Assembly (NCBI RefSeq): GCF_000181795.1
Contig: NW_003526941.1
Coordinates: forward strand, 2,042,232-2,106,231
Direction: 5' to 3'
Length of the DNA stretch: 64,000 nucleotides
From: Trichinella spiralis
Lineage: Eukaryota
The notes beneath the pieces are model-generated. The model made no database searches and was not told the origin of the DNA. It saw nothing but the letters and a program-made list of their open reading frames with translations. The position numbers were made by a program, and so were the translations under genes. Within the stretch, counting starts at the first letter, position 1, and every line of letters starts with the position of its first letter. This document shows, piece by piece, positions 1,839 to 56,780 of this stretch.

Positions 1839-2936
1839 TCAAGCCACTGGAATTAATTTCATGTAAGCAATACTTCCGAGAGTGCCGGCTAACCAGACCA
1901 GTAGCCACAAACGCCTACCAACCTGAGTGACAATAAACGGCATCGTTAAGAAGGCAACAAGTAGAACGGATGGTAAAGTTTCTCTTAGGGGAAGCGGTTT
2001 GGAATAAGATGGCTCGCCTGGAAATGCTTGCCCATTTTCATTGAACTGCTTCAAATAATTCTCTTTAGCTGCAAATCGTTGGAAAAGCCATTTCCTAAGC
2101 GGCACTTCATCCCTGGGAACATCATACAACGGGATGCAATCCAATTTGATATGAATACGAGTCGACCTCCAGTTGCAGACTGTGGTTAACATGTTCGGTA
2201 TCTGACGAATATCGTCCAAACGTTCGTACAAAATTGTGACATCGTGGACGAATTTCAAATTTTCCCTCAAATGGTTCAGTATCCAATAAAGTCCACGAAC
2301 TCGCGGAAGCAAAGTGTATTCAGGGATGGCGACACCAAATTCTTTCGCAAACTGTGCTGACTTTTCCGACGCATGCTTATTATTTGAAGAAAAACGAGTG
2401 CCTTCTGGAAATAGAACGAATGATGTAGGAACGTTAAAGTTTTTGATAAAGTCCAACTGTTGTCCAGATATTTCAGGACGAAAGCGACCAGCGCGTCGAA
2501 CATAAACGCAACCGTGTAAATAAAAATAAAAACCATACAACGGCACGTATTGAAGTGTGTCTTTCAAAATATATCTCAAACTGCCAAGGCGGCCACGTCG
2601 CACTGCAAGCATATCCCCAACGACCCAATCCAATGAACTTTGATGATTGAAAAGATAAATGATATTTCCCGATCCACGCAGTTCAACTGAACACGGATCA
2701 ATACCATAAAATATTAATTCAGCACCAGAAACGTATTCAAACAAGAAAAGAACAAATCGCTGATATATGCTGTACATCGAATCGTCTACTTTAGCCCAAA
2801 TTTGTTCGGGAAAAATAAATTTGGAAAACACGCGCCACATTATCGAGATGCAAAAATATGGCACTGAGGTAGTCATGACCATTAATGGAATGAAAAAAGT
2901 TTTCACATAACTAGACACTGTCGTGATGATGTTCAT
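1839..2936 (-). CDS. AGPAT5: 1-acyl-sn-glycerol-3-phosphate acyltransferase, AGPAT5/LCLAT-like (365 aa, single coding exon)
   Basis: Acyltransferase motifs NHQSSLDW (HxxxxD), LRYILKDTL, YVRR and LFPEGTRF, plus hydrophobic N- and C-terminal segments. ATG at 2936 follows a TTTTCAG acceptor at 2964. Confidence 0.88.
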   Translation of the reverse strand: MNIITTVSSYVKTFFIPLMVMTTSVPYFCISIMWRVFSKFIFPEQIWAKVDDSMYSIYQRFVLFLFEYVSGAELIFYGIDPCSVELRGSGNIIYLFNHQSSLDWVVGDMLAVRRGRLGSLRYILKDTLQYVPLYGFYFYLHGCVYVRRAGRFRPEISGQQLDFIKNFNVPTSFVLFPEGTRFSSNNKHASEKSAQFAKEFGVAIPEYTLLPRVRGLYWILNHLRENLKFVHDVTILYERLDDIRQIPNMLTTVCNWRSTRIHIKLDCIPLYDVPRDEVPLRKWLFQRFAAKENYLKQFNENGQAFPGEPSYSKPLPLRETLPSVLLVAFLTMPFIVTQVGRRLWLLVWLAGTLGSIAYMKLIPVA

Positions 2937-5651
2937 AACTGATTCAACTAATTGGATTCGTACCTGAAAATCACTTACAGTAATACAAAACACTGTATTG
3001 TGGGGAATGATTTAGAAAAATAATTTTCCTAACCAAACAATTAATGAATGCATTCCTTTCTTTAAACTTTATCAATATTCTAAATAATTAAAAAATTATA
3101 AACAAGCTATACATGTAAAGGTAGAGCGAATGTACTGTATTCATAAATCGGCTAAAATCTTACGGATAGTGATTCAAAATACAAACTTATTTTCAATAAT
3201 TTAATCTTTAGTAATACCATTTCAGAAAATTATTTTACTGACAGTTAAGCTCTAACTGAATTCATATGTAGTGGACATGTTGGATCCAAATTATCTACAT
3301 CTTTAAGCCAGTCTGTTCTTAAACTGTATGAGTTTGGAAACTAATAATACTAGTAATTTAACTACAGTTTTGGTCAATCAATAAGCAATTGTGATTGGGA
3401 TTTATTGAATGAATTACTGGATACAGTGAGCATTAGTATAAATGGTACGTACTCGAGAAAATGCAAAAGCTTACTTACTGCTCAGTCATCGATTGGAATT
3501 AGCGGAAAAGACAAATGCAAAAAATGCCTTATCTTAAAATGCTCAATTCTGTTAATTACATCAGTTGAAAACTTTGCCAACATCAAAACTCGGCAACGTG
3601 ATCCAAAAAATGAGTTCTGTAAAATAATCAAGTATAATTTTTTTCATATGGTCGATTTAATCATGGTTACTATTAAAAAAAGAGAAACAAGCGTTTTTAT
3701 AATTGAAAATAATGAAATTATTAATATACAATATAAATATATACAAACAGACATAACTGTTATCAAAAAAATGGAACACTTCAAATGATCATTTTTTCTC
3801 TTAAACCGTAAAAAGGGAAATTCAACTCTAAGCAATGCAATAAGAAAAAATAATGATTAATTAAAATACTGTCGACAGAAATTTACAGACTGACGGAATT
3901 ATTTTTTTTTCAATTTGTAGACAATAAATGAAGCACTAGAGTGACAAAATAGATCAGCATGTAATGTTTTAATGTTACAGCAACGTTCTTCAGAGAATGT
4001 TGCATTTCAGCTAAAAAGAACACATGCTCCTTAGCAACAACAGAAAATTATAATCCAACATTACAGTTGATTCCAAACTGCTCAAATTAATCTAATCGGT
4101 TTTGATTTCATCATCCATACATGACAAGTACAATGACAAATGATTTTAAAAATGAAATAAACTTGAAACTGCGAAACAGTTTATCATGAACTTTGTAATA
4201 TTTAAAGAATGTTTTTCAAATGTAAAATTCTTTTTTTCACTATAAACTTAATTCTACTTGATATTTTAATTGAACTTGTCTAACCGTGTGCTTAGGTGAA
4301 AATTATTAAAGCGAACATGCGTGCATCTGTGCAGAGGCGATATCAATGTTAATTTTGCTGTCATATATGATATCATTCATCAAGTAAATTTCAAAATTGC
4401 ACGCTATGATTATCTGAAACTGAGATAAATTAATTGGTAAATTTTCCCTTTGGTAGGAAAATTTAACATCACAAATAAGGTATTAAGTTGCCTTCCTGTT
4501 AAAGGTTATTTTTAGCATATACCAATAATCAAGTTGAATAAGAATAATGCTGAGAATAGTTTTCATTAGCATCAATCGTACGTACAACTCAACTTTAAAT
4601 TGATTCCATTTTTATACGCAATACATCATACTGAGAAAAGTTTATTTCATTTAAAGGGTTTTGTTTCATTATTTTATCTATATGCCAAAAAATACTGACA
4701 AATAAATAAGTTTTCAGTTTATATTAAGAGGAGAAAAAGAAACTTTATACTGGAATTATAAAGAAAATTAATCGATCAAATAAAAGACAACACATCTCAA
4801 GTTTTTAATTAATAAACTGAAAGAAGATGAGTGTGTCAAAAAAAACATTGCGTGTATCACAAAAAAAGACCAAACGCATATAAATACGTTAACATGCAAT
4901 GTGAAATTTTGATTATCAACCTGTGGTGAAAATAATCACTTCATTCAGTCAGTTATACAGAGAAATTCAGTGATTAGACTGATAATTATAACGATGAAAT
5001 AAATCCATTCTACAAGATTTGTTGCGTTTTTGAGTTACTGAACTATTCAAAAGAACACAAGACTGAACTGCATATTCGTGTAAGTAGTATTTCAATTTTG
5101 CGCACGCTAAATATTTCATTCAACTATTTCTAAATTACATGCATGCAATTATTTTTGCATACCATTATAATTGAAAAGATATGAAAAATAAGATGCAGAA
5201 AAGATCTTATAAAATTAGTAATTTTCTCGTGTTATTTGAAAAAAGTCTGAACATCATATTGAAGAATTAATGAACGGTGAAAACATTGAAATTTGAATCA
5301 ATCAAATTACATTTGTAAGTAAATATCATTTAATGCAATATTAGACAATACTGTTTTTTTTCCTAAGTATAAATTTCACAAAAATTATTCACATAATACC
5401 ACTGCTTTCAAAAGCAGTTTTGTCAGTTCTACAAATTAAAAGTCAACAAACATATCTCTCTGTCCATAATACACAAAACATAGTACATAAAAAAAAAACA
5501 AACCTTTCGTGATATTCTACCGTTTACGTATAATGTAGATACAATAATAATGATAAGTATAAGTGAATGTACTCAATGCACCATACAGATATATTATTTC
5601 AATAATAATTTTTTGTTTGATGCAGAAATTAACGCTAGTGCAAAAACTCAC

Positions 5652-8660: not shown

Positions 8661-10097
8661 GGAGGAGGAGACAGATTTATGCATTAACTTCATTATTTCA
8701 GTGCCAAATAAATTGTTAGCAGCTTCACGTTTAATAATTATCAAAGTATCAATCCGTAGTTTCATGTTGATTTTAATAAAAATAACATACGAAAAATTCA
8801 GTGCATATTGTGCAAACAATACGGTAAAATATATTTCACTGAAACTGGGTTTTAAAATTTTTAAATATTCTATTTAATTTCGAACATTTGCAATAAAGTA
8901 CACTTAAACATGTTCGCTAATTATAAAGCAATATAGTTGATATATAATGCTTACCAATATTTAAAAAAAGAAACAAATAGATAGTTCAACCTAATATTCG
9001 ATCTTGTTATGCATCATTATCAACAACAACAACAAGAATAAATTATAAAAGTATAAAAGAAAACGTAAAAATAATTCATTAAACAGCAATGCATGCAACA
9101 TAGTGATATTAGACTTTAAACCTCGGAAGAAACGATCATCACTTAAGCCCATTTATAATGAAATTTGCTTAAAATTTTCCTCCATACACGTTTGCTGCGG
9201 AGTGTCAGTTTTCTCTTTTTATCAAAAGCTTAAATCATTTACGAAGCTAACATGTCAAATCTAACAATAAACGCAACAACAATTCATTTGTGAAATTTTA
9301 ACAGTTTGTAATGCACAAATTTTTAATTATGTCTATGTGTTTCAGTTTGCAGCGCTAATTCTTGCATCATCGCTTTCAGCATGATATTCGAGTATGGACG
9401 ACGATTTTACCTGTCCAATTCCAATCTATTCGCTTATCGCCCTTTGACATGCTTGTACGCATCGCCACATCTGATAACTCGAACATTTGGTCGTAGCAAT
9501 TTTGTACTAATTGTTTTATTACTTTCCGTGGAACGTCTACTCGCCTTGTACTACCCTATGTGGCATAAGCGCTTGTTTTCAGAACGTCAGTGCCGCATGT
9601 TGATGTGCTTAATTGCGTGCAGTTCAATTTCGATTGTGATCATACTTTGCCTCTGCGCATGGAACAATTCCAACGCACTCGTCTCACCTCAGTGTTCACT
9701 TCAGCAGACGTCTTACACGTTCACGCTTGCCATGGCTTATTACTACTTGATCGGCGATTCACTGAGCTGCTTGACCAATTGTATCCTGCTTTTCAAACTT
9801 TATCGGCGTCGATCAGTGTCGACAATGAACGTCTCAATCAGAAAAAGATGGATAGTGATAATCATAATGACGAATATCATTCTAGCCTTTGGACCGGATG
9901 TTGTCAACGTTATGCGCTTATGCGGTTCAGTCAAGCGTGGTGTACAACGGCTTTGCCAATTCATGAAACAAACCTACGCCTACGTTATGGTAGCGCTTTA
10001 CTTTTTCTCTTGTACAGATTTGGCAGAAAGTATGCGACGGACTTTCCGCTGTAACAAATGCTCCCTACGCAGGCCTCCTATTTTACCTGGCAACTGA
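7267..10097 (+). CDS. Orphan 7TM G-protein-coupled receptor, about 312 aa, resembling nematode serpentine (Srsx-like) receptors
   Basis: Exon 1, 7267-7453 (donor T|GTAAGT), joins in frame to exon 2, 9346-10097 (acceptor TTTCAG). The product has about 7 hydrophobic segments and the TM3 end motif LSVERLLALYYPMWH (D/ERY-like plus downstream Pro). Confidence 0.75.
8551..8657. repeat. (TA)n plus (GA)n microsatellites in the GPCR intron
   Basis: Read directly from the sequence. Confidence 0.95.
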
Positions 10098-12870: not shown

Positions 12871-14405
12871 TCAAATGCAAACCTTTAGCAAAATTATATC
12901 TAATTTTTTCAGCTGAAATATGAGAACATCATATATTTTTTAAATTTTCAATGATTTTCTTAAATATTAGAACATAATTCTGGATTTTATTTAAAAAAAA
13001 CAGATAAAAATTCATTACTTTCTCCTGTATAAATACGGTGAATTATAGGGAGAGAGAGAAAGAGAGGTCTTTGTGATAGCTGAAAATGACAAGAGGATCG
13101 TACCAGCTACTTACTGTGAAAAGGAAATTTCAAAACGAAACGGAAATGTTGAACTTGTTCAATTTCATTAATTTAATTTGCCGGTAGAAATGTGATCGCA
13201 AAGCTAATCGCATTTGCAAAGGCCTAACACCTAAGATTATTTCCATCCATTTGCATGTTAATTGAATTCTCAATCACACACAGAGTCAACTGAGCCTACT
13301 TCACGCGTAACGTAATTGCAAAAAAATTGAAATTGCATTCAGAATATGCTCTCATTTTAGGTGAGAAATTAAAATGGAAGAAAAAAACACAGCAAAAGGA
13401 AAAACACTGTCAGTGAAATGATGAACGGAAATTAAATTTGTTACCAAGTTCACAATAACAGTGTCAGCAAAAAATATGCAAATTTCAAGACAATTCAATT
13501 TATGTTTAAAATGATGAAAAAAAAGAGCGAGCAAAAATCAGTGAACGAAAAAACCAATAATATCAAAAGTGTGTATTTTTGATGAGCTTATTTTTAATGG
13601 TGGAGGAAAACTTTCATTTACCGTTAGCATAAAGTCAATGATCACAAAATTAGCTCTTTCTTTTTTCAATTTTTCCAATGACCAATTAAATGCAATCTGT
13701 TCTGACATTTTGCATGTTCGTTGATTGCTTTTTTTAATTTTAAAATTCACCAATGTTCAAAACTTCAAAATTTGATCCTGTGCAGCATATCAATAAATGC
13801 GATGCTTGACGAAAAGCACAAATTTCCCGATCAAATAATTCGAATGATATTAAGAAATGCTTTTATAAAAAGAAAATAGACAAATTGTTCAGTGAATGAA
13901 TGAACGAATGAGTGTATTTATACTTGTCGATCATTCAATTCAATTTTCCCCTCGCACATGCATTTGGTGTCCAAAATATTCTTTCACCACACGACAAACC
14001 AATCTGTGTGCCAGTGAGAAGGAATCTTCTTCAATGAAAATAATTTATAGCATTTACTTTCATCTGCAAATTAACAAATTACTCTGCCCGTGATTGAAAT
14101 TATCTCTTAAGCATTCTGCAATAAGTTGAAATGCAATAATCCGTGCAATACGGCTTATTATATTCAATGACGACATGGCTCTTTTCAACAAAATGGTCTC
14201 TGCGATTTAAAGTCACTTTTGCTTTTTTGTTATTTTTCCATTAAATCTTTGCATTATATGTTTATAAGACGGAGAAGAAAAAAAGAAATAAAAAGCAAAT
14301 TCGAATAAATCAAGAGAATAAATTCAATTTCATTTTGCTTTGGTTAGATAATTCGAAGCAAAGCAAAATTTTGCTCGTCTCGAAATCACGCAATCTCAAG
14401 CGTCA

Positions 14406-15028
14406 ATGTCACCGGCTGTATTGAGATCTTTCACAATTTTTGCATTTCTGTTCACATGCTCAGCAACAGATACAACAGTGGTCAGCAAAGCACAATTACA
14501 TCAACACGAAATCAAACGAAACAACAAAGCACTCTGCTCAACAGAGGATCCCAAGCAATGCCTGTTCAGTTTGTTGCAGAAAATGTTGAAAGGAAATCAT
14601 TCGAAAGGTTTGAATACATTTTTGTTTTCTCATTTCGAGAAAAACTACCTCATCACATCACATCACATCACATCTCATCTCATATATTCTGTACCATAGC
14701 ATTATTAACGAATATCAAATTCAAATTTACATTGCGCATAAATTTCAAATTGCCAACACAACTAAATAACGTTCAGTGAAAAATTACTGATTATTTTTGT
14801 ACAAGGAACAATATGCTAATATTATTCATATTTTTAGGAATAACTCTCGTAAATCCTGCCGAATTTCTCCAAACACAAAGTATGTTTCTCTGCCCCATCA
14901 TGGACTTCGTTTTGTTCGAACAGTTTCCACTTTTAGATAAACTGCTGAACAATGCTGATCATGAAAGCAGAGACAGTTTCCATATACGATTTGGAAAACG
15001 TTCAACATTTCACGATAGCAAAGACTAG
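14406..15028 (+). CDS. RFamide neuropeptide precursor A (predicted DSFHIRF-NH2)
   Basis: Exons 14406-14607, 14838-14879 and 14937-15028; the last intron is 57 nt and in frame. Signal peptide MSPAVLRSFTIFAFLFTCSA, Cys pair CSTEDPKQC, C-terminus ...HESR-DSFHIRF-G-KR-STFHDSKD*. About 111 aa. Confidence 0.85.
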
Positions 15029-15790
15029 CAAAGATTCTATACTTCAGAGAATTACTAACTGTATTGGAGATAATGAAGTAAAATGCACCACTTGAGCATT
15101 ATGCGTCACAAAAAAATAAAAGTGAAATATAACAACTAGCTGTGAAACTAATTTAAACAAACAGATATTCACCGCCCACATACAATACATCTCTTGCACA
15201 ATATTAAATCATCACTATTCAATAGTTATTAAAATCTGTTCGCAAATATGAAAATGAAAAATTGAACATTTCAAATCAAATTTAAATGAAAGTAAATCAA
15301 AAATGCATTTGAAAAAAACTCAGATAATTAAAACACATGCTGACAAATGTTAGGCACAGTAGCGAATTGACTATGAATTTCCATTTGCCCAGTAGTGGGG
15401 TTTCATTTTTTAATTAAGAAAACGGAAAATTATTCAATGTTATTCTTACAACATGATGAAAAATATTCTACAAACAAAAATCAGATGACATTAAATTTCT
15501 ATCTCCTTTTTCTGAGCACAGTGTAGGGTTTCACATACTTGAAATGAAATAAATTTTATCACACGCACTTCGCATGCATATAGGTAGGCAAGAAAGGCCC
15601 ACAGAATAATAAATGAACGATTGGTTTGTTTCCGCGGCAGAAAAAAGTGAAAAGAAAAGAAACAATTCAATAGCTGATGAAATAATATCAAAAATATTGT
15701 GTATTAAGGTTTCGGTACTTACGGGCAAAGTCGAAATTTTCTCTGCCAATGTGAACTTCAGCCTCGGTGTAGAAAGGTGTTGGTAATTGT

Positions 15791-16466
15791 ATGATCATGC
15801 TGCTTGTAGTAAAAGTTCTTTTCCTCAGCACTTTATCGATGCAGTCGTTGTCCTTTGAACTGTTCGATAGCACAAATCCATGCAAACATTCAACAGTCGG
15901 CACAAATTCAATGAACATTCCCTGCGAGCGTGATTATTACAGAATGCGCATACTTCAGTTGCTCCAAAATGTAATCAAAAGTACTTCGAACGGTATGACA
16001 GTATAATCATGTTTCCTCCATCTGTTTGCAGCTAAAATTAACACACTCTGCTGTATAAATTATTAATAATGTTCTATAATCTTCTATAATGCTCGAAATG
16101 TTTAAATAATGATTAAAGACACTTTATAACAACGTTTCATTATTATACGTTAAAAAGAATGAAAAATTTTCAGTAAAGTATTTGTATTTTGAATCATTTC
16201 TTTTAATTCAGTTTCCTAATGTTCCCTGAATTGCATTGTAAAGTTTAAAATCAACTTTAAACTACAGGAATTGTGTTGAAAAATTTCCGTGATGTCGTTT
16301 CAAATCAACACTCAGACTATGGACTTGGTACGTAAGATGTGAAAATATTTATATTTTCAAATCAATTTTACTGCAATTTCTAGGTAAAGAATATTGGAAA
16401 GAGCCGCTTATGCAGGGAAGGCATAGCATTCACTTGCGTTTTGGAAAACGATTTCAATTCAGTTAG
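15791..16466 (+). CDS. RFamide neuropeptide precursor B (predicted HSIHLRF-NH2)
   Basis: Exons 15791-15992, 16268-16327 and 16384-16466 join in frame via phase-1 GT-AG introns. Product: signal peptide, CKHSTVGTNSMNIPC, then GIVLKNFRDVVSNQHSDYGLGKEYWKEPLMQGR-HSIHLRF-G-KR-FQFS*. 114 aa. Confidence 0.85.
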
Positions 16467-18333
16467 CTTGGCAAAAACCGAGTACGACTACAGGCATGGC
16501 TTAAACCCAGTAAAATTCGTCCCAATTATACATATCATAAATGGAAAATATCAATATGTATAATGGCGGAAGTTACGTTGAATTTTGCAAAAAGCGTTAT
16601 TACAAAAATGTAACTTATATATTTCTATCTAATCGAAATGATCTTTCAACAATAATGAAAATAAACCGTGAACAGCTAATAATTGTAAATATTTTTTAAA
16701 AACAATGACGCAAATGCTTCAGCTTAGTTGAAAGTAAATGCATTTTTTGTGTAATATTATTTCAATTAAGAATCAATGTGCAATTTTAAAATAAATGACA
16801 ACAAACCCCGGAGAAATTAATTTGAAATAATTTTAGCTTTTAATGTAAATGTAAATTGATTTCATTAAAGTAATACAAAACCACAAAACACTGCTTTATA
16901 AATTAAGCATTGTGTTTGAGATTTATTTCAGAAAAGAAAAAAAATATACAGATAGAAAGAAAATTCCTACATATATATATATATATAAGAATTTGAGTGA
17001 AATGATAATTTAGCTTCCCACAAAAGAAGAATATCGACTTGTAAGAAAAATTTTAGTGAAAATTGAATCAATACTACACATTTGGAACAAATAAATGAAC
17101 TGAAAATTCACCGCCAATGACTTATTTCCATTTAAATAATTTTCCTCCGATGCCAATTATCAGTATAAAAAATAATAAAATAATAATGACGGATAAAGGG
17201 GCAGAGGGAGAGAAAAAACAGTTGCTGTCAGTTGGATAGCAATTTTCTGTTTTATTGACCAAGATCCACCAAAAAAAGCAGGAATGCCAAAATGACATGA
17301 ATACAATTTCAAAAACTGTGATTTCATAAAGAAATATCAATAAGGAAATCAATTTGACATTAAACTTTCATTAATTACATGCAACAAGCATAAAAGAATA
17401 ATACAGCACATATATATTATTTTAATAAATATGACTTCTACATTGATTGTACTTTCAATTTGAATAATACAACACTATTATTTTATTTGTTAAACTTATT
17501 CCAAAAACGCGTGCATAAGATACATTAAAAAGAAAATTTTAAAAATTAACATTTGCTTATTCATCGTTTAGAAAAATTCCACATTCTGATAAACCGTCAT
17601 TAGTTTTTCAGATAATATGTTATAATGTAATATAATATAATATAATATGCAAGATGATGTGGTAATTCAGAGGAAATAATCTGCAAAATCATACAGCAAT
17701 TACAGAATTACTTTAGGATAAAAAAGTTCAAAATATTAAAAACAGTTTTAAAAATAAAGAAAAACTAAATTAATAAAAGTTACGCGATTAATCATTGGAC
17801 TAAAAATTTTTATCAGTGATTATTATTCATTAATTTGTATTTACATGCTGCATATCCATGTGCATGCATGTATATTTCATGTAGTTGCACATTAATCGAG
17901 AAAAATTGCAAAATAAATGTCAAAATTATTAAACACCATGCAAATAGAAGATTATTATCAACTGGTAAAGTTATTGTTATAAAATGAGAATGTTGCTATT
18001 TTCGAAAAGTCAAGTTGCTAAGTGCTGCTGCTAATCTGCATTGGTTGAAGAAAAACACCACTAACAAGCTGAGCATAATTATAAAACAAAATGCTTTTCT
18101 AAATTAAATTCAACAAAAGATATTTTTTCATTTAAAGCATAGAATTGAAGAGTGATACTAATTTTCACAGATTATAACACAACTAATTCTGTAATAATAT
18201 TGAAAGAAAACCAAGAATTAAAAATGTATCGTCTAAAGTTAACACAACCTAATAAAATGTTATTTCTACCTTTTCAGAGAAATTTGAAATTTTAAAATAT
18301 TACAAAAGAACCACAAATTGTTCACGTGTGAAT

Positions 18334-18334
<1 letters not shown>

Positions 18335-18372
<38 letters not shown>
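18335..18372. repeat. (GT)n microsatellite
   Basis: Read directly from the sequence. Confidence 0.95.
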
Positions 18373-18374
<2 letters not shown>

Positions 18375-19192
18375 AGAGGGGGGTGGGTGAGTTTGTCTAA
18401 ATGAATCACATCATTTATGCAAATGTACAAAAGGAAGCAGTACGGAATAAAAAATTTCTTCTACTGAGTGTTGTTTTCTTTTCAAAGCTCAAAATATCAA
18501 CATAACCGTTTCGAAATGTATCGCTAACATTACAAATAAGCAATAATAATAGGATATCCAAATGGAACTGATGTCGAATGAAAAAATTCAAATAGGTCAA
18601 ATATTGTGGTTACTATTTTCATTTAACAAATAGCATCAGCGGTATTATCACACAAATGCCGGTCGAAACAAACGCAAGCAACTGTTCATGTTAATGTTTG
18701 TAGAGTATCTCTCCCCCAATACAAATAATATCAAAACAAAAAAATTAAAAATATATAATACATGTGAATAATTCCATAATTGATTATAATTTGTATTGTA
18801 CAGTTCAGCTTGTTCACTGCTGGTGAATGCGTCAACCGACAGTGGCAATTATCTGACTAGTACTTCAATTATCCATTAGCACCAGTTGGTGTCGCTTTTG
18901 TTTCCGCACGTAATCACGTGATTCGCTTTCCAAGCAGGGTGCCTGCGCACTTTCTGGCCACCTTTGAATGCGATTGTGGCGTTGAGGCGTCGCGAGGGCG
19001 TTTGGAAAATTCAACTAACAGAATTTCTTGATAAGGCGCAGACCAGCACCAAGGTCGACAGTTGTGAGCTTGTCAGAGCAACACGTTATCCATCCACACG
19101 TCGGACACATCCACAAGTTTGCACATCGTAGTACAGCATTTGCAGGTCGTCAAAGCTGCACCAACAGGCTAATAAGAACAACAGCAACAACC

Positions 19193-19226
<34 letters not shown>

Positions 19227-19430
19227 TCATTCAATTATTTTTACATTATTCTATTATTCATTGCCTTTCTACAAGCAATCCGTGAACGCTTAACCGTGGA
19301 AGTCAGTCAATGAGCAGTAGCAGCAGTAACAGTACAGTGAGTTAGATAGATAGATGGTAGTTGTTGGAGGGGAAAATTTTTTTTTGTTCTTCTTTTCCAC
19401 TACAAAAGTAATGAACAATTTCAGACGACA

Positions 19431-19857
19431 ATGCTGTGGACAGTTATTTTGTTGACAACTTTGCTGTTCAACAGTTGCTTCGGATGGGAAGGTTGGTATT
19501 GGAATCCTGAAGAAGTGGGCGACGCTCACCATGATCTGGTAAAAATATGCGGATCCGAAGATCTTCGACCTTGCTACAAACGTATCTACGAGGCAGCTAG
19601 GGAGAATTTCAGAGGTATTTTTGTCGAAGAAATTTCATCCCTGCGTGCTTACTGCTTTGTTCCTTGTTATTCAAAAAATTAAATTAACATTTTCCGTTCA
19701 AGGTGATCCGGATGAAGAAAGCATGACGAAAGAGTTTATGGAAATTTTGGCACCAATGAAACAGATCATCGACCGACTGGAAGCTAAGAAAGAGAAACAA
19801 CGTCTGAACCGCGCTACGAGAACAACAAGCTATCACATCCGGTTCGGAAGAAAATGA
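19431..19857 (+). CDS. RFamide neuropeptide precursor C (predicted TTSYHIRF-NH2)
   Basis: Exons 19431-19614 and 19703-19857 (phase-1 intron). Signal peptide MLWTVILLTTLLFNSCFG, Cys pair CGSEDLRPC, C-terminus ...RLNRATR-TTSYHIRF-G-RK*. 112 aa. Confidence 0.87.
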
Positions 19858-21692
19858 AACTTTCCACTATTTTCGCACTGCACATTTTCCAAATTACTAT
19901 TATTTCTTGTTGTGTATTTGTGATGAAGTATATACAATTCAACTGGCTGAAAGCACGATGCCAACGTTGATTCGAACTGTTTATCTCCTTTTTGCCGTTC
20001 CTATTGTGCACAAACCACGCACTATTCAAGTGGTATCTGCACTCCAAGCTGACACGACTTTGTTTACACATAAAGTTTTTTCCAAGAAAACATTTGTATT
20101 TTGCGTACTCAGTTTTTAGATCTATTTGAAAAATGCGAAATAAAACATTATCCTTAAACAACATGATCGATCGATCGATCGATCGATCATCCACACGTAC
20201 AAAACCAATGTACAAATTAATAAGCAAGAATTAATTTTAAAAAACCGTTTGCAAAACCTCTCAAAATAATAAAACACTCAAATAACCAACTGTCATAAAA
20301 AGATAATGCAAAAAAGTAAAAAATAAAAATAAATTTCAGCGGAGTCTGTCGTTCATTGTTCCAAAGGCAAGCAAGTTAATTCCAGAACCATTAAGCTGAA
20401 AACGGATAACGACGACGACAACGACGAAAGCGAAATAATTGCACAATGAAGCAGCGTCGTTACTGTTCAATTACGTCAAATTAGCCTTAATTAAAACCCA
20501 TCAGGGTGTTTGTCAATAAGCAAAAATAAAAATAGTACCAATAATAACTTGCTAATGAATTGCAATTTAAATAAATGAAATGTTTATCTTAAGTAATATT
20601 TGCACGTTTAAAAAGACAATTCACCTACAATAGGCTGCTGATTTGATTAATCAAAGCACGCTGTTCCTGCTGCAGCATTTGCCAATTTCAAAAGCAGGCT
20701 CTATTCTTTCTTGGGAAATTTAATTTCATATTCACTCCTCAAATTGGAACAGTAACGCATTTGGAGAATTCACTTCAATGGTAAGATCAGTTAATTACAA
20801 CACTGTTTGTCAGTAAACTGGAATAACAAACTTCTTTTTTTTTCTACATAAAACTAACTATCCACCTCGTTGAAACTACTTGGCAGATATTTTACAGAAA
20901 ATTTAAATTTCAATAAATCTGAAGATGTGTAATTGAAAAAAAACGGTTCAGTTGTGATTTTTTTTGGAATAATTATCGTTCTTCAATTTAGTTTTTAATA
21001 AATAATCTAAAAATAGACTTTTGCAGTGGAATGAAAATCACGAAACACCTTGGTGAATGCTTTCACATTACAACAAAAAAATTAATCACCTAACGAGTAC
21101 CATTTAGCTGATTATTATTTGGCCAAAATTGAAATTTCCTTCCAATTTTTTCATATCACGCTATCAAATCGAAGAATTCATTCGTTATCTATTGTTGTTC
21201 TTTGTTAGTTTGCAAAATTATTCACTTTTGAGATGATTCAATATAGAAATTTGCATGTATTTACACGCAATTTTTATGGATTTCATTCACACTCAAAATA
21301 ATGCGATCGAAGATCTCAGATCGAATGATACACAAGACTAGACCACTTTACTCGCATAACAGAGCAGTAATTGATGGAATATTTACAACCAGACAAAAAA
21401 AATAAAAGCATCCGAACATGATATTCATTCATGTTCTAACATTGTTTTCAGTTGACTGAAATCATCGTCGAACAAGAAAATATAGCAATGTCCATTTTGG
21501 AAGAATAAAGTATTTTAAAATCTGTCTGCAACAAAATTCGTATAAATTTTCATACAATTCAACTGCCGTACTGTTAGTGGAAAAAAGTATAACCGGAAAC
21601 AAGAAAGTACCATCATCAAAAGGCAGTGAACAAATATGTTAAGCGGGAAAATAATTCATGACAACAAAACTACCCCGTTCTGTAAATAGCCG

Positions 21693-24600
21693 TTAAAGAA
21701 ACTGCTGCAAAGGGTGCCATTGAGAAGCTGGCAACGTGTGCAAAGCATCTAAAGCAGATAAAATCGATCTGAAATTTCGATAGTCTCATGAAAAATTCTG
21801 CACACTACAAATGGGAAACAACATATGAGAATCTTATGGCAGAGAACGACAACTGACCACAACAGAGAACAAGCGACAAACCACACGCATACACACACAC
21901 AGCTTCACAAGAAAACACTAATTTAGTTTTATGCCTTGTTTCAAATGAGACGTAACAATAAATAAAACAATGATAAAGATGATCATTCTCCACCACCAAA
22001 AGATAAAAAATAGACAAGCAAAGCGAGAAAATTATAAATCAAACAACTTGATGAGATAAACAAAAAAATTAACAAGGTAACTTACAAAAGCAAACAACAA
22101 ATCACTGTCAGTATACGCATATAATCAGAAAACACTTACCTGAAAGATTGATGATCACTTTTCCCAGAAATGTATTCTGCTTGAAACGATCATAACTCCA
22201 GACGGTGAATTCTAACATCTTGCCGAGCGCTTGTTCCAAGTTCAAGTCTTTGTAAACCACAGTTTGGTTCCACACGGGATTGTTTGATCGAGCAATGAAT
22301 TTCGTTCGACGCTTATTTTGTACACTATCAAAAAAGCAACAAAGTCAACAGTTGAACAGACAGACGGTGTGTAAGAAAAATATGGCAATAAATTAATAAA
22401 ATGTGCATATATGTACATTCGTTCAGGAAGAATGTATATTTTTACAAAGGGATTCGGGGGTCGTCGCTTTTTCGCATCGACGTTCGGCAACCGAGCTGCA
22501 CATAATACTGTGACGAACAGCGTGTCGGATGTGTGGTCAAAGCAGACGCGCAGTTTCAGCAAGCCCCCGTTGGCCAGATCCTGAGCAAGCAGTGAATTCT
22601 GAATTATATACAATAATTCAAGTGTCAATTTTTTTGCGTATCCAATCTCCTCCTATGTGTATGCTCTTAAAAGCAACAGCAATAAATAAAGGAAAAAATG
22701 AAGAGAAACAATAATTATAAAGTATAAAATTAGCACAAATATTAGCATATGTTGTACAAATGACAACGTGAAAGATATACACTGATTTCGGTCTTGTCCG
22801 AAGCTATTTTATTTCAGAAAACAAAGAATCTCAAAAGAATAGAATAAAGAAAAAAAACAATGACAGTATAGCGGTAGGATATTACGTGCAAAAAGCAATG
22901 GACCAGAAACAGAAGCGTGAAAAAATGAATAAATATATTAGATACACGGGCAAGGAATGGTCAGAAAGAGAAAAGCAATGTTTCTGTTTCCAAAAGTTGT
23001 TGACTGACAAAAGCAATTTTGCAAATGAAAAGAAGCTGCAGCAGACAGAAAAGTAACAACAAGTATTATCAATGATAACAACAAAATCAACTACACCAAC
23101 AACAACAATAATAATAATAATAATAACAGCAGTAACAAAATAAAATAAAGCATTGAAGCAGATTTGGTATTTTTGCTAGGAAGTGTTTCAGGTTACCTGC
23201 TGCTGATTCGCAGTGAAAGGTGATCGACTGCGTGGGGTGGTGCTGAAACACGGAGAAGCTTTACCAAAATCTAGCCCTTGACAATGCCTATCATTAGCTA
23301 AACAAAAATACACCAAAACGTCAGTATTTTTGTTTCCATTTATATTCTTATTTTAGTTCATTAAAAATATAAAAGAAGGATTAAACAAATAAAATAGAAC
23401 AAAACAGAATATTTCAAAGGGAAAAGTGATTTAGAAAATACATACAGATAATAAAGTCGCAACAAAACGATTGCTTACTTTGATCGAGTCCAGTTTTTCG
23501 TTGTAATGCTAATTTGGCTAAACGAGGATGTGCCAAATTGGACAAACAGCAATCACTTTCGTAACCCTTGTCCAAACTGCTACTTGGACCTTCTTCCAAA
23601 CGATACACTTGATTTAAATTGGCATCGCTGAAATAAATATTAACAACAAAACAAATAATGAATAATAAAGCGGCTGAAGTGAATAAAAATACACCGCACC
23701 TTCGTAGAACAATCTCAAATTCCCCTTCTGTATTGTCAATAATCGATTGAACTTCTTCGTAAGTTTTGCCTGTCAACTTTATGCCATTCCATTCCAATAT
23801 TTGATCGCCTAATAATAATAATAATAATATAATCAATGAAAACAGCAATGAAATTATATTACCTTCTTTCACTTCTTCCATCAAGTCTACCAAACCACCT
23901 TTATACACAGCAGCCACGTAAGCAACTAATTCGCCGTCAGAACCAGGTAAAATTTTACCACCAATAACACGCATACCTATGCCATGACCTGAAACAAAAA
24001 TGAATTTGTTTGAAGTAGAATTGAATTTCCAGTTCCAAACAAGCAACATACCGGAACGATCACGAACGTCGCGCACAAGCAACAGCCGTTTGATATTAGC
24101 CGACAATGGAGATGAAGCCTGACGAAAAATCGACTTACCCTCCTCTAGCAAAATTTGTGACGATGCCTAGAAATGGAAAAAAACGCCCGCTTCAGTGCTT
24201 CTCTTTGTTCACATGAAAGGCATAAACTGAAAAAGTTCATCCGGCTAAATTTTGGCACGTTTTCTTTTCCACCCTCTTTTTTCAAAGCTCAATTTCCCTC
24301 TGCTGATAGTTGCCGCCGCAAATTCACATTACATTCTTTATTTTCTCTTAAACCTTCTTTCATTCCATTATTAAATGAAAACGCGTTTTATTTAAATCTA
24401 ATTCGCTCTATGATACAAACAACCAGTCAAAATCACCAATTTGTATAAGTGAAGAGATTATTTCAGAAAAAAGAAGAGAATGATTTTTCTAAAAATAAAA
24501 CTTATTAATGGAAATATAGCATTTGCATAGTCATGCTGCAGAATTAAATAAATTGCAAACAAATAAGCAAAAATTCTGAAAACAAAGCAAATAGAAATAG

Positions 24601-27600
24601 AAGGTAGATTAAAAGATAGATAGATAGATAGATTGATTGATAACAAAATGAATACGATTTACACAGGGCAAATAAAGAAAAGCTCACAATAGGTCACGTT
24701 GATGTGGCTGGTAAAGATTAGGAACGTCAAATCTTACGCGTTGTCTATGATGATTTTCAACTGATGCGTTTTGCAGGCTTGAATCGATCAAATATGGATT
24801 ATATGACTGTGTTTTCAAATCTGAAAAAACAAGAAAACAACAATTTTCATCTTCTACATCGACCATTCGAATAAATTGAACCGGATATTTGACTTCTCTT
24901 TCACACCTGCATCGTATTGAGCAGATTTGACGCCTGAATAAAGAGGCTCTTGATCCTGTTGTCTTCTGCTTCTTCTTCTTCTGCTGTTGAATGCCGGCTG
25001 CTGGGCTGTCATGGAACAATAGTCGCGTGTCGATGGGTAAGTTTCCATGGGGGCATCGGTGCGACAGCCGTGCAACGATAAACAATCGTTCAACGGTTCA
25101 TCGTACTTGTCGTATGGGAGCCGACTGGCTATCGGTTCCATCACTGAACTCGGTCTACAGTTGAACTCAGTAGAGGAATCCGCATACGGCATGCATTTGG
25201 CAGTGGAACGGTCCTCGCAAAGTTTGCCATACCCGTCGTCCAGTGCACTGGAGCGACGTAGAAAATCGTTGTGCAAATAGTTCGCATAATGTGACAGCAT
25301 ACTGCTAGATCGGGGCGTGTTCACCTGCTCAGTTCCTGCTTCACCTGAAAAAAAGGAAAACATTTCATCAAACGTTTCGGAAAAAAAGAAGAAAAAGACA
25401 AAGCACGCATGCATGCATGCATGAGCAATTATCAATCTACTCACCAAATCTACGGCCTCTGCTGTAACCACGAAATGAGCATTCAGGTTGAGAATCGAGC
25501 GATTCGTAAAGATTGTTCAAATAGGGCAGTGACGAACTGAGCGATCTCTGACCATCAATGAACCAAGGTTTCTGATCCCGCCAAGTCAAAGTGTCGTAAT
25601 TTGCACGATGAAACGCCGAATCTTGACCATCGGCAAACGAAGCCGTGTCCGATCTGTACAGTCGGTCGTACTTTTGATACGGTCTCAACGGATAGCTAGC
25701 AGAAAAGGAGGATGGTTCGTTGTCATAAAGGGCATTTCTTGACATTGGAGAATAATCGTACAGTCGATCGATGCGTGGAAGTGAACCGTAGTGGCCGGAA
25801 AAACGATTCGAAGAATACAACGAAGGTGTAATGTAATTGTTCAATTCCATCCCGTCGTCCATGTAGCGGTACGTAGAATCAGCTCTGTGGGGCGGCAAGT
25901 TGAACAAATCTTCATAAGAGCTGAACTTCTCTCTACGTCGCGCGATTTCACGACGAATTTTCGATCGTCTGCTTTCACGTGAAGCGAAATCATCATCAGC
26001 TGAGAAATAAGTAAACGATTTTGAATTCAAATTTCGCCACTTCTTATTTCCCTCTGAACGTCGTCTAGCCATCAAACGATCTTAATCATAATCACAAAAT
26101 ACAATTCGCAAAATATGACAACAATGAACAAACACAATATACCTTCATCAATTTCATCCGTGCTTGTCGATATTGTTCTGCAAGTTGGACCATCGCTAGT
26201 TGATACGCCTACATTTTTGTGCTTGCTCAAGAGAAGATCATCTTTTGGTTTAAATCGAACAAAATTTCCACTGTTCGTCGTTTCGGACGATTGTTGCACC
26301 GTTTGTGTACTTGCATCTTTGTATTTTTCCAAAACGTCTGACGTCTGAACGGTAAAATCGTTACGCTTGGTTTGCTAAAAAATATTAAAAAAACACACAC
26401 ACACTAAAAATGGCGATCCACAAAATTTTACAAATAGCAGTACCACTGAATCATCTTTTTTTACAAACGATTCCTTTTTGCGAACAAGTCGGCTATTATT
26501 CCACTGTTCTTCACCACCATAGCTACCGTAACGTGACGACTGGCCGTAAGAATTGCTGAATTCAGCTTTGGATGACTCTCGTTGTCGAATTGAAGATAAA
26601 TAACGCGATCGATCAAAATGCACCACACAGCCGCGTACCATTTCTGGAGACAAGCCGCATCGAACCACTGACGGTGCTGAATCAACGCCAGCCGACTGCG
26701 GATACACACCAGTAGCCATATATCGCTGCAATAAACCCTCTCATTATCAACTGCCTCAATGAACAAAAAAATACATTGGACAAAGAATTGCATTTTTCAC
26801 TTTGAAGTTTAGTTTAAAATTTCGACATTTCAATAATAAGAAGAAAAAGAAGAATATGCAACTAAAATGGTCAAAGAAATGGAATAACAATATAACATTG
26901 ATAATTGAAACAAGGTGGCTTTACTCCCAACGAACAAATTCTTCGTTGATGGGCTTTCAATTTTCGGCCGCTTCCAATTTTGTCCCAGTCGTTTGGTAAG
27001 CGGCTTCCCGCAGTTCTTGCTTGGAGTAGCACTCGGTGCAAGCGGTGGGGCGGCAGCAGACGTCGACATTGGTAGCCAGAGGCGTTGAATGCTGTGGCCG
27101 CAACGTTTGCCCAATGTTCTTCCACGAACTCGGCATGCTGATGNNNNNNNNNNAAGTCAAACAATTGAACAGCCAGCCGGTGTGTAAGAAAAATATGGCA
27201 ATAAATAATAAAATGTGCATATAGGTCGATTCGTTCAGGAAGAATGTATATTTTTACAATGGGATTGGGGGTCGTCGCTTTTTCGCATCGACGTTCGGCA
27301 ACCGAGCTGCACATAATACTTGACGAACAGCGTGTCGGATGTGTGGTCAAAGCAGACGCGCAATTTCAGCAAGCCCCCGTTGGCCAGATCCTGAGCAAGC
27401 AGTGAATTCTGAATTATATACAATAATTCAAGTGTCAATTTTTTTGCGTATCCAATCTCCTCCTATGTGTATGCTCTTAAAAGCAACAGCAATAAATAAA
27501 GGAAAAAATGAAGAGAAACAATAATTACAAAGTATAAAATTAGCACAAATATTAGCATATGTTGTACAAATGACAACGTGAAAGATATACACTGATTTCG

Positions 27601-30600
27601 GTCTTGTCCGAAGCTATTTTATTTCAGAAAACAAAGAATCTCAAAAGAATAGAATAAAGAAAAAAAACAATGACAGTATAGCGGTAGGATATTACGTGCA
27701 AAAAGCAATGGACCAGAAACAGAAGCGTGAAAAAATGAATAAATATATTAGATACACGGGCAAGGAATGGTCAGAAAGAGAAAAGCAATGTTTCTGTTTC
27801 CAAAAGTTGTTGACTGACAAAAGCAATTTTGCAAATGAAAAGAAGCTGCAGCAGACAGAAAAGTAACAACAAGTATTATCAATGATAACAACAAAATCAA
27901 CTACACCAACAACAATAATAATAATAATAATAACAGCAGTAACAAAATAAAATAAAGCATTGAAGCAGATTTGGTATTTTTGCTAGGAAGTGTTTCAGGT
28001 TACCTGCTGCTGATTCGCAGTGAAAGGTGATCGACTGCGTGGGGTGGTGCTGAAACACGGAGAAGCTTTACCAAAATCTAGCCCTTGACAATGCCTATCA
28101 TTAGCTAAACAAAAATACACCAAAACGTCAGTATTTTTGTTTCCATTTATATTCTTATTTTAGTTCATTAAAAATATAAAAGAAGGATTAAACAAATAAA
28201 ATAGAACAAAACAGAATATTTCAAAGGGAAAAGTGATTTAGAAAATACATACAGATAATAAAGTCGCAACAAAACAATTGCTTACTTTGATCGAGTCCAG
28301 TTTTTCGTTGCAATGCTAATTTGGCTAAACGAGGATGTGCCAAATTGGACAAACAGCAATCACTTTCGTAACCCTTGTCCAAACTGCTACTTGGACCTTC
28401 TTCCAAACGATACACTTGATTTAAATTGGCATCGCTGAAATAAATATTAACAACAAAACAAATAATGAATAATAAAGCGGCTGAAGTGAATAAAAATACA
28501 CCGCACCTTCGTAGAACAATCTCAAATTCCCCTTCTGTATTGTCAATAATCGATTGAACTTCTTCGTAAGTTTTGCCTGTCAACTTTATGCCATTCCATT
28601 CCAATATTTGATCGCCTAATAATAATAATAATAATAATAATATAATCAATGAAAACAGCAATGAAATTATATTACCTTCTTTCACTTCTTCCATCAAGTC
28701 TACCAAACCACCTTTATACACAGCAGCCACGTAAGCAACTAATTCGCCGTCAGAACCAGGTAAAATTTTACCACCAATAACACGCATACCTATGCCATGA
28801 CCTGAAACAAAAATGAATTTGTTTGAAGTAGAATTGAATTTCCAGTTCCAAACAAGCAACATACCGGAACGATCACGAACGTCGCGCACAAGCAACAGCC
28901 GTTTGATATTAGCCGACAATGGAGATGAAGCCTGACGAAAAATCGACTTACCCTCCTCTAGCAAAATTTGTGACGATGCCTAGAAATGGAAAAAAACGCC
29001 CGCTTCAGTGCTTCTCTTTGTTCACATGAAAGGCATAAACTGAAAAAGTTCATCCGGCTAAATTTTGGCACGTTTTCTTTTCCACCCTCTTTTTTCAAAG
29101 CTCAATTTCCCTCTGCTGATAGTTGCCGCCGCAAATTCACATTACATTCTTTATTTTCTCTTAAACCTTCTTTCATTCCATTATTAAATGAAAACGCGTT
29201 TTATTTAAATCTAATTCGCTCTATGATACAAACAACCAGTCAAAATCACCAATTTGTATAAGTGAAGAGATTATTTCAGAAAAAAGAAGAGAATGATTTT
29301 TCTAAAAATAAAACTTATTAATGGAAATATAGCATTTGCATAGTCATGCTGCAGAATTAAATAAATTGCAAACAAATAAGCAGAAATTCTGAAAACAAAG
29401 CAAATAGAAATAGAAGGTAGATTAAAAGATAGATAGATTGATAGATTGATAACAAAATGAATACGATTTACACAGGGCAAATAAAGAAAAGCTCACAATA
29501 GGTCACGTTGATGTGGCTGGTAAAGATTAGGAACGTCAAATCTTACGCGTTGTCTATGATGATTTTCAACTGATGCGTTTTGCAGGCTTGAATCGATCAA
29601 ATATGGATTATATGACTGTGTTTTCAAATCTGAAAAAACAAGAAAACAACAATTTTCATCTTCTACATCGACCATTCGAATAAATTGAACCGGATATTTG
29701 ACTTCTCTTTCACACCTGCATCGTATTGAGCAGATTTGACGCCTGAATAAAGAGGCTCTTGATCCTGTTGTCTTCTGCTTCTTCTTCTTCTGCTGTTGAA
29801 TGCCGGCTGCTGGGCTGTCATGGAACAATAGTCGCGTGTCGATGGGTAAGTTTCCATGGGGGCATCGGTGCGACAGCCGTGCAACGATAAACAATCGTTC
29901 AACGGTTCATCGTACTTGCCGTATGGGAGCCGACTGGCTATCGGTTCCATTACTGAACTCGGTCTACAGTTGAACTCAGTAGAGGAATCCGCATACGGCA
30001 TGCATTTGGCAGTGGAACGGTCCTCGCAAAGGTTGCCATACCCGTCGTCCAGTGCACTGGAGCGACGTAGAAAATCGTTGTGCAAATAGTTCGCATAATG
30101 TGACAGCATACTGCTAGATCGGGGCGTGTTCACCTGCTCAGTTCCTGCTTCACCTGAAAAAAAGGAAAACATTTCATCAAACGTTTCGGAAAAAAAGAAG
30201 AAAAAGACAAAGCACGCATGCATGCATGCATGAGCAATTATCAATCTACTCACCAAATCTACGGCCTCTGCTGTAACCACGAAATGAGCATTCAGGTTGA
30301 GAATCGAGCGATTCGTAAAGATTGTTCAAATAGGGCAGTGACGAACTGAGCGATCTCTGACCATCAATGAACCAAGGTTTCTGATCCCGCCAAGTCAAAG
30401 TGCCGTAATTTGCACGATGAAACGCCGAATCTTGACCATCGGCAAACGAAGCCGTGTCTGATCTGTACAGTCGGTCGTACTTTTGATACGGTCTCAACGG
30501 ATAGCTAGCAGAAAAGGAGGATGGTTCGTTGTCATAAAGGGCATTTCTTGACATTGGAGAATAATCGTACAGTCGATCGATGCGTGGAAGTGAACCGTAG

Positions 30601-55974: not shown

Positions 55975-56026
<52 letters not shown>

Positions 56027-56370
56027 ACGCCCATTTTTTTGATGAATATTGAAATTGAGAATAATTTAAATGATTACTTTTGAAAAAAAAAGGACTCTTG
56101 GTACATTCTGTACCTTCTCGTTGGCCAAATTTTGTATTTATACCACACAGTGACCGGTTTGTTCTTTCATATGGAATTATCCTCTGCCGAGTGGGGCTGA
56201 CTAACTCGTTCCACTAGTATCATGCCGACTTCACCGATACTCCTTTTCCTAGGACCTACTGCTAGAGCTGGTGGTGCTTGTTCACCTTTGATCCTTCTCT
56301 TTACTCCTTCATCCNNNNNNNNNNCCAAAATCACAACACAATACTAACAACAACAACAACAACAACAACA

Positions 56371-56443
<73 letters not shown>

Positions 56444-56748: not shown

Positions 56749-56780
<32 letters not shown>

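What the first reader, a model, noticed from the sequence alone, without database searches (positions are those of the whole stretch)
14406..19857. Tandem cluster of three paralogous S-[FIY]-H-[IL]-RFamide neuropeptide precursor genes
Seen in the sequence: three same-strand genes within 5.5 kb encode 111, 114 and 112 aa proteins. Each has a signal peptide and one C-terminal peptide after an Arg and before Gly plus a dibasic site: R-DSFHIRF-GKR, R-HSIHLRF-GKR and RATR-TTSYHIRF-GRK. All three have a phase-1 intron splitting a Gly codon after the Cys-pair region, with first coding exons of 202, 202 and 184 nt. A and B both resume with GI[TV]L. Established knowledge: Gly followed by KR/RK signals prohormone-convertase cleavage and C-terminal amidation, and H-[ML]-RF-amide is the C-terminus of arthropod sulfakinins. 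I do not recall this motif among the C. elegans FLP signatures. Inference: this is a locally expanded, possibly lineage-specific HxRFamide signalling family. It would be easy to miss because the pro-regions have diverged and the ORFs are split by introns.
Basis: partly seen in the sequence, partly recalled or inferred. Interest (0 to 1): 0.9.

Follow-up and report, generated by a model that had tools for sequence, protein, structure and literature searches.

The report
Uncatalogued Trichinella RFamide neuropeptide gene cluster
Three spliced genes side by side in the parasitic worm Trichinella encode precursors predicted to release short amidated nerve-signalling peptides of a type missing from the published nematode lists checked here; they would raise this worm's known count of such genes from four to seven and likely act on inhibitory receptors of the myosuppressin-receptor family.

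Summary
Three + strand genes (111, 114, 112 aa) each have a hydrophobic N-terminus and one C-terminal HxRF peptide before Gly plus a dibasic site. All five predicted introns appear as GT..AG joints in RNA-like runs and not in the DNA-like run. The proteins match Trichinella 'hypothetical protein' records. A's peptide block is invariant in 13 of 13 congeneric records and C's in 9 of 9; B is on record only in T. spiralis. A and B are clear paralogues; C is weaker. The sulfakinin lead fails: no Tyr at -6, no Gly at -5, and T. spiralis already has nlp-12. None of the flp signatures in a 2014 catalogue has His at -4. The nearest outside hits are FLP-6 precursors and, by language-model features, myosuppressin and gastrin/CCK. 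Best reading: an uncatalogued FLP-class family nearest FLP-6/10/17, likely acting on DMSR-type Gi/o receptors (about 40% for that step). New here: the cluster lies antisense inside a C2-domain gene's transcript. No peptide or receptor has been shown experimentally.

The parts
14406..15028 (+). Gene A, 111-aa precursor; exons 14406-14607, 14838-14879, 14937-15028; Cys44/Cys52
   Evidence: identical to P0012
14969..15001 (+). A: single Arg (14969-14971), predicted 7-residue RFamide (14972-14992), Gly plus dibasic site (14993-15001)
   Evidence: block invariant in 13 of 13 congeneric records
15791..16466 (+). Gene B, 114-aa precursor; exons 15791-15992, 16268-16327, 16384-16466; Cys31/Cys45
   Evidence: identical to P0011 (T01_2633, T. 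spiralis); cluster of 1 member
16419..16451 (+). B: single Arg (16419-16421), predicted 7-residue RFamide (16422-16442), Gly plus dibasic site (16443-16451)
19310..19857 (+). Gene C, 112 aa from ATG 19431 or 123 aa from the in-frame ATG 19310; exons (19310-19336), 19425/19431-19614, 19703-19857; Cys40/Cys48
   Evidence: 112-aa form identical to P0003
19810..19854 (+). C: R-x-x-R site (19810-19821), predicted 8-residue RFamide (19822-19845), Gly plus dibasic C-terminus (19846-19854)
   Evidence: block invariant in 9 of 9 congeneric records
15723..16031 (-). Distal alternative exon of the opposite-strand C2-domain gene; overlaps B exon 1 antisense
   Evidence: joint 16031-22140 in 3 of 4 runs; loose ends map to 22146
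16032..22139 (-). 6108-nt minus-strand intron that holds B exons 2-3 and all of gene C
   Evidence: CT..AC on +; splice contexts
12913..15722 (-). Inferred further minus-strand intron that holds gene A; joins the antisense exon to the exon starting at 12912
   Evidence: loose ends at 15723 (X9) and 13019 (X7, X10) match the sequence at 12912; outside the laid stretch, so not shown as a joint
22140..22324 (-). C2-domain exon of the host gene, upstream of both alternative last exons
   Evidence: Pfam C2, E 1.8e-13; joints

Best explanation
These three spliced Trichinella genes encode precursors predicted to be cut and amidated into one short HxRFamide neuropeptide each, likely an uncatalogued FLP-class family nearest to FLP-6/10/17 that would signal through inhibitory receptors of the myosuppressin-receptor (DMSR) family. 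Shown: gene structure, splicing, the Arg / peptide / Gly-dibasic layout, and invariance of the peptide block of A and C across the genus. Inferred from established prohormone biology (about 85-90%): the signal peptide is removed; the Cys pair closes a loop in a helical pro-region; a PC2-type convertase cuts at the single Arg (A, B) or R-x-x-R (C) and at the dibasic site; carboxypeptidase trims; the amidating enzymes turn Gly into an amide; 7-8 residue peptides are released from dense-core vesicles. Inferred, weaker: origin by old tandem duplication (A-B clear, C probable), and a DMSR-type Gi/o receptor that lowers cAMP and damps neurons or muscle (about 40%; FRPR-type about 30%, CKR-2 about 10%, NPR-4/6/8 about 10%, other about 10%).
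For: Splicing. Conservation: A peptide block 0 of 11 positions variable against 25 of the other 100; C only 3 of 112 variable. Both Atlas searches returned only amidated-peptide prohormone clusters among the listed rows. The whole-library HMM search gave 9 hits: 3 Trichinella and 6 FLP-6-type precursors. Register from the amide end: Ser at -6 and an aliphatic residue at -3 are shared with the FLP-6, -10 and -17 consensus lines; His stands where they have Tyr/Phe. 4 of the 6 FLP-6 hits carry a pro-region Cys pair 8 apart, against 7 in A and C. T. spiralis is listed without flp-6, -10 or -17, while the clade-2 worm X. index is listed with flp-10 and -17. FLP-6, -10 and -17 act on EGL-6, and EGL-6 and DMSR-7 lower cAMP; egl-6 is filed in the Dromyosuppressin receptor family. 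T. spiralis has DMSR-2, or DMSR-2, -7 and -8. All three upstream Arg sites have a basic residue (His, Lys or Arg) at -4 or -8, which fits a recalled monobasic-cleavage rule.
Against: The FLP-6 hits (E 2e-6 to 1e-3) are driven by their 3-6 repeated peptides. The profile comparison aligned only the peptide, not the Cys region (probability 62%). His at -4, no Lys at -7 and single copy do not meet the FLP-6/17 signatures. EGL-6 itself is absent from T. spiralis in both surveys, and the two disagree on DMSR-7/-8. The Atlas ranks myosuppressin first for C and gastrin/CCK first for A. In the only run on record as RNA (X18, 23 records laid), reads over A and B exon 1 were all in the antisense orientation, so no sense reads for A or B were seen there. 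B's introns were seen in 0 of 4 runs from other organisms, and no congeneric B protein was found. The three proteins score no FARP match in Pfam. No peptide, expression site or receptor is shown.
Confidence: 0.6

Rival explanations
1. Divergent true orthologues of arthropod myosuppressin: a ~100-aa precursor with one C-terminal RFamide, retained in this early-branching nematode lineage and tripled locally. The predicted receptor family is the same as in the best explanation.
For: Atlas: myosuppressin clusters rank 1 and 3 for C (0.92, 0.90) and rank 3 for A (0.94). The crab precursor is 100 aa with one C-terminal peptide. A pro-region Cys pair in myosuppressin precursors is recalled, not tested.
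Against: His is at -4, not -6, and the FLRF-type ending is absent. For C the shared-feature count (163 of 256) is under the tool's 170 mark, and unrelated prohormone families score within 0.01-0.04. No myosuppressin passed E 0.001 in the whole-library search. FLP-1 is already treated as the myosuppressin-like nematode peptide, and T. spiralis has flp-1.
Confidence: 0.17
2. A second sulfakinin/CCK-type system acting on CKR-2.
For: His at -4 before an aliphatic residue and RFamide matches the sulfakinin ending; B has Leu there. The Atlas top hits for A are gastrin/CCK clusters (0.94, 182 features, 13 of 30 hits). ckr-2 is present in T. spiralis.
Against: The family signature needs Asp at -7, Tyr at -6 and Gly at -5. 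All three peptides have Ser at -6 and no Gly; C's only Tyr is at -5, with no acidic neighbours. There is one peptide per precursor, not two. nlp-12, the ligand of CKR-1/2, is already listed in T. spiralis as Tsp_12011.
Confidence: 0.07
3. Not three equal neuropeptide paralogues: B is a young or decaying copy kept partly by the overlapping antisense exon, and/or C's near-invariant helical pro-region is itself an active hormone, with the short RFamide secondary.
For: B is annotated only in T. spiralis, and its introns were seen in 2 of 8 runs. C's pro-region varies at only 3 of 79 positions, against 18 of 72 in A. B-C pro-region similarity is at chance level.
Against: B is spliced at canonical sites with an intact frame and a complete cleavage and amidation layout. 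A and B have no detectable DNA similarity beyond the peptide, so B is not a recent copy. Absence of B in congeners may be missed annotation: the RefSeq models of A and C carry consecutive accessions, with no B between them.
Confidence: 0.11
4. Host-directed mimics: secreted RFamides acting on vertebrate RFamide receptors in gut or muscle.
For: No full-length relative outside Trichinella was found. Mammalian NPFF receptors respond to all five groups of mammalian RFamides (passage).
Against: The layout is that of ordinary neuronal prohormones. A's peptide is invariant across species with different hosts. There are no secretome data.
Confidence: 0.05

Closest known systems
Nematode FLP-6 / FLP-17 / FLP-10 (EGL-6 ligands)
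   Same: RFamide with Ser at -6, a ring-bearing residue at -4 and an aliphatic one at -3; 7-residue length in A and B; pro-region Cys pair (4 of 6 FLP-6 hits); one peptide listed for C. elegans FLP-10.
   Different: His instead of Tyr/Phe at -4; no Lys at -7; one peptide against 3-6 matched stretches in the FLP-6 hits; single Arg upstream in A and B; pro-regions do not align; EGL-6 not found in T. spiralis.
Arthropod myosuppressin
   Same: ~100-aa precursor with one C-terminal amidated RF peptide; nearest Atlas cluster for C.
   Different: 7-8 residues against 10; His at -4 against -6; no Phe at -4; three tandem genes.
Sulfakinin / CCK (nematode NLP-12)
   Same: His, aliphatic residue, RFamide at the end.
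   Different: No Tyr at -6, no Gly at -5, no acidic context, one peptide; nlp-12 already present in T. spiralis.
Catalogued T. spiralis FLPs (flp-1, -8, -14, -18)
   Same: RFamide class, Gly-dibasic amidation signal.
   Different: None of their peptides shown has His at -4; all are multi-peptide precursors.

Membership tests
Nematode FLP class | Signal peptide, peptide ending Arg-Phe-Gly, basic cleavage sites on both sides | tested here: met
   (hydropathy only; SignalP not available)
Nematode FLP class | Amidated peptide detected and active on a GPCR | not testable with these tools
   needs peptidomics and receptor assays
Catalogued flp-1 to flp-34 | Match to a listed C-terminal consensus | tested here: not met
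   by eye against Table 1 of PMC4058706: no signature has His at -4; one B. xylophilus FLP-13 copy does, after Pro
FLP-6/17 | Ser at -6, aliphatic residue at -3 | tested here: met
   3 of 3 peptides
FLP-6/17 | Lys at -7, Tyr/Phe (Leu in some FLP-17) at -4, several copies | tested here: not met
   0 of 3
FLP-6/17 | Homologous Cys-bearing pro-region | tested here: inconclusive
   similar spacing, but not aligned by hhalign
FLP-10 | Tyr at -4 and a small or basic residue at -5 | tested here: not met
   His at -4 and a bulky residue at -5 in 3 of 3; Ser at -6, Ile/Leu at -3 and single copy do agree
Sulfakinin | His, Met/Leu, RFamide at the end | tested here: inconclusive
   B meets it; A and C have Ile
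Sulfakinin | Asp at -7, Tyr at -6, Gly at -5; two peptides per precursor | tested here: not met
   0 of 3 have Tyr at -6 or Gly at -5 (A alone has Asp at -7); one peptide each
Myosuppressin | ~100-aa precursor, one C-terminal peptide | tested here: met
Myosuppressin | Decapeptide with His at -6 and an FLRF-type ending | tested here: not met
Myosuppressin | Shared intron position and pro-region Cys register | not testable with these tools
   no myosuppressin gene or precursor was returned by a sequence tool
NPY/NPF | Intron inside the Arg codon of the RF ending | tested here: not met
   feature; each peptide lies wholly in the last exon
Luqin/RYamide | Peptide next to the signal peptide, Cys pair C-terminal to it | tested here: not met
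   order is reversed; nlp-72 is listed separately for T. spiralis

The most novel reading that the evidence does not exclude
An early-branching nematode keeps an ancestral single-peptide, Cys-loop RFamide precursor that links arthropod myosuppressin to the nematode FLP-6/10/17-EGL-6 system. Trichinella tripled it inside, and antisense to, a C2-domain gene's transcript, so alternative last-exon choice of that gene could tune gene B. These peptides would be native ligands of the parasite's few orphan DMSR receptors.
Probability: 0.2. Interest if true: 0.75.

Novelty: new variant of a known kind. Interest (0 to 1): 0.55.

Why it matters
T. spiralis is cited as having a 'dramatically reduced' FLP set (13% of C. 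elegans, four genes), from searches seeded with C. elegans peptides; that study states it did not look for new flp genes. Three spliced precursors with a new signature would take the count from four to seven and suggest that part of the reduction is a search artefact. They supply three cheap synthetic ligands for a parasite with a small receptor set (22% of C. elegans neuropeptide GPCRs), so receptor matching is directly testable, and FLP receptors are pursued as anthelmintic targets. A specialist would find this useful and plausible, not startling.

Tried and rejected
No whole genome is held for this window, so there was no genome-wide count of such genes or receptors; no RNA holder listed; X1, X3, X7, X9, X10 and X11 are RNA by the tool's guess, and only X18 is on record as RNA. 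Pfam gave no family above cut-off for 3 of 3 proteins. Word-index searches found only Trichinella (1 of 1, 2 of 4 and 6 of 1139 candidates). The metagenome scan had 263 pattern matches and 0 confirmed. The AlphaFold model of C is low-confidence (pLDDT 57.5, pTM 0.35; four helices), so no fold search was run. No earlier scan findings. Paper searches: one search was swamped by an unrelated word; one search gave 6 papers, by listing 5 arthropod peptide papers and 1 unrelated; one search gave 52 papers, and the 20 listed hit only the two T01 strings and were unrelated by title. A numerical scoring of the mature peptides against published FLP peptides was not done, so that comparison is by eye only. 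The 130-aa database model of A (57-nt intron retained in frame) is rejected in favour of the spliced form seen in 5 of 8 runs. NPF and luqin are rejected on gene structure and domain order. Not seen: bioRxiv supplements (closed), figure-only alignments in the McKay and McCoy supplements, theses, subscription journals and WormBase ParaSite; any of these could already name these genes.
Full report
1. Observation. Six-frame translation finds three HxRF-Gly-dibasic sites at 14987, 16437 and 19840. Enumerating GT/AG models gives A (111 aa, three exons), B (114 aa, three exons) and C (112 aa, two exons), with first exons of 202, 202 and 184 nt and a phase-1 intron in a Gly codon. For B and C other models tied on my crude splice score; the RNA joints decide for these. 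The products equal stored records P0012, P0011 and P0003. The pattern occurred 3 times in the window and 0 times in 100 Markov simulations; the looser RF-Gly-dibasic pattern occurred 6 times against a mean of 0.35. The best hydrophobic 9-mer of each protein lies within the first 17 residues.

2. Transcription. Eight runs were laid. A's introns appear in 5 of 8, C's in 7 of 8 and B's in 2 of 8 (two samples of one study); none appears in the DNA-like run X13. Only X18 is on record as RNA: 4 reads span C's intron, with first mates on the minus strand over C. Its reads over A exon 1, B exon 1 and 18823-19224 have the opposite orientation, so it shows no sense reads for A or B among 23 records. A further intron (19337-19424, 4 of 8 runs) puts ATG 19310 in frame with C, giving a possible 123-aa form as in several database models.

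3. Organism and range. All full-length relatives are Trichinella 'hypothetical proteins'; B equals a T. spiralis record. Among 13 other A records, the Arg-peptide-Gly-dibasic block varies at 0 of 11 positions, against 5 of 20 in the signal, 18 of 72 in the pro-region and 2 of 8 in the tail. Among 9 other C records only 3 of 112 positions vary, none in the peptide block. B has no congeneric record. A profile search of 1.84 billion representatives gave 9 hits at E up to 0.001: the three Trichinella proteins and six FLP-6-type precursors. A distant homologue sharing only the peptide would be missed, so lineage specificity is open.

4. Paralogy. With signal and peptide removed, local scores against 2000 shuffles give A-B p = 0.0065, A-C p = 0.048 and B-C p = 0.75. 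Full-length BLASTP gives A-B 29% (E 7e-6) and A-C 18% (E 0.001). Intron 1 lies 24, 23 and 22 codons after the aligned Cys; A and B share a second short phase-1 intron. No DNA similarity better than E 0.3 remains between the genes, so the duplications are old. B keeps only one of the two Cys of A and C in register.

5. Context. The cluster lies antisense within a minus-strand transcript. A C2-domain exon (22324-22140; Pfam E 1.8e-13) splices either to 21748 or, across 6108 nt, to 16031, each in 3 of 4 runs. The long intron holds C and B's last two exons, and the distal exon (16031-15723) overlaps B exon 1. Loose ends at 15723 and 13019 match the exon starting at 12912, which would put A in an intron too. 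By eye the host resembles a PDZ-C2 active-zone protein (RIM/Piccolo/clarinet type); that name is recalled, and the PDZ-like ORF gave no Pfam hit. Whether the overlap regulates B is untested.

6. What family. Sulfakinin: the ending resembles it, and A's top Atlas hits are gastrin/CCK. But the defining Tyr at -6 and Gly at -5 are missing in 3 of 3, and T. spiralis already has nlp-12, the CKR ligand. Myosuppressin: the layout fits and the Atlas ranks it first for C, but His sits at -4, not -6, and many unrelated prohormone families score almost as well. Nematode FLPs: no consensus in the 2014 table has His at -4; T. spiralis is listed with flp-1, -8, -14 and -18 only. The best register, by eye, is FLP-6/10/17: Ser at -6, ring residue at -4, aliphatic at -3. 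Four of six FLP-6 hits also have a pro-region Cys pair, but hhalign aligned only the peptide. So these genes work like FLPs but are not members of any listed flp gene.

7. Mechanism. Processing to amidated 7-8-mers follows from established prohormone biology (inferred, 85-90%). For the receptor, the two nearest ligand groups converge. FLP-6/10/17 act on EGL-6 and FLP-1 on DMSR-5 to -7; EGL-6 and DMSR-7 lower cAMP, DMSR-7 through Gi/o; egl-6 is filed with the DMSRs. T. spiralis lacks EGL-6 in both surveys but has DMSR-2, or DMSR-2, -7 and -8. I therefore commit to a DMSR-type inhibitory receptor at about 40%; FRPR-3/-7/-18/-19 are the main alternative.

8. Literature seen. Passages plus supplement searches: PMC4405611, PMC8764417 (Table S3 whole), PMC8515059 (Table 2 whole), PMC8449533. 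Section 4 whole plus passages: PMC4058706. Passages only: PMC11462694, PMC11004728, PMC7615250, PMC7041311, PMC7314547, PMC12035899, bioRxiv 2024.07.20.604414 and 2020.08.07.240440. Nine library searches listed no paper that names these peptides or accessions. The HxRF words had 0 hits in 8 McKay supplement files and 1 hit (a B. xylophilus FLP-13 copy) in 6 McCoy files. I could not map McKay's Tsp_ ids to these loci. Figure-only alignments and closed sources may still bear on novelty.

9. Verdict. Real, spliced, conserved (A and C), and uncatalogued in the sources checked: a new variant of a known kind. New FLP signatures in an under-searched clade are expected, no function is shown and the family's depth is unknown, but the result corrects a repeated claim and gives directly testable ligands.

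Noticed in passing
window 12861 to about 12480, minus strand: A small fourth gene candidate: hydrophobic N-terminus, phase-1 intron 12743-12580 by best splice consensus, 73 aa with two dibasic sites but no amidation Gly. Its first exon (from 12912) is the splice target of RNA loose ends at 13019 and 15723, so it may be transcribed together with the C2-domain gene. Exon 1 had no Pfam hit. Possibly another peptide precursor.
   Followed up: partly
window 15723-16031, 21748, 22140 (minus): Alternative last exons of the C2-domain gene give two different short C-termini; seen in runs of three other organisms.
   Followed up: partly
window 22342-27143 and 27154-31938: A 4.8-kb tandem duplicate, 98.8% identical and separated by a 10-N gap; likely an assembly artefact duplicating part of the host gene. 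A smaller, 77% repeat flanks the N gap at 56315-56324.
   Followed up: partly
window 14880-14936: In-frame 57-nt intron of A that several database models (130 aa, including XP_003379280.1) retain; RNA contigs splice it out.
   Followed up: yes
window 18390-19168: GC-richer, RNA-covered stretch upstream of C, minus-oriented in X18; no convincing ORF seen.
   Followed up: partly
P0026-P0031: 4 of 6 FLP-6-type precursors carry a Cys pair 8 apart before the first peptide; a shared pro-region Cys loop may be a useful handle for finding divergent FLP genes.
   Followed up: partly
window 9327-10097 (+), 1839-3011 (-), 54509-62414 (-): An intronless hydrophobic ORF that looks GPCR-like by eye but had no Pfam hit; an acyltransferase; a p190-type RhoGAP.
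   Followed up: partly
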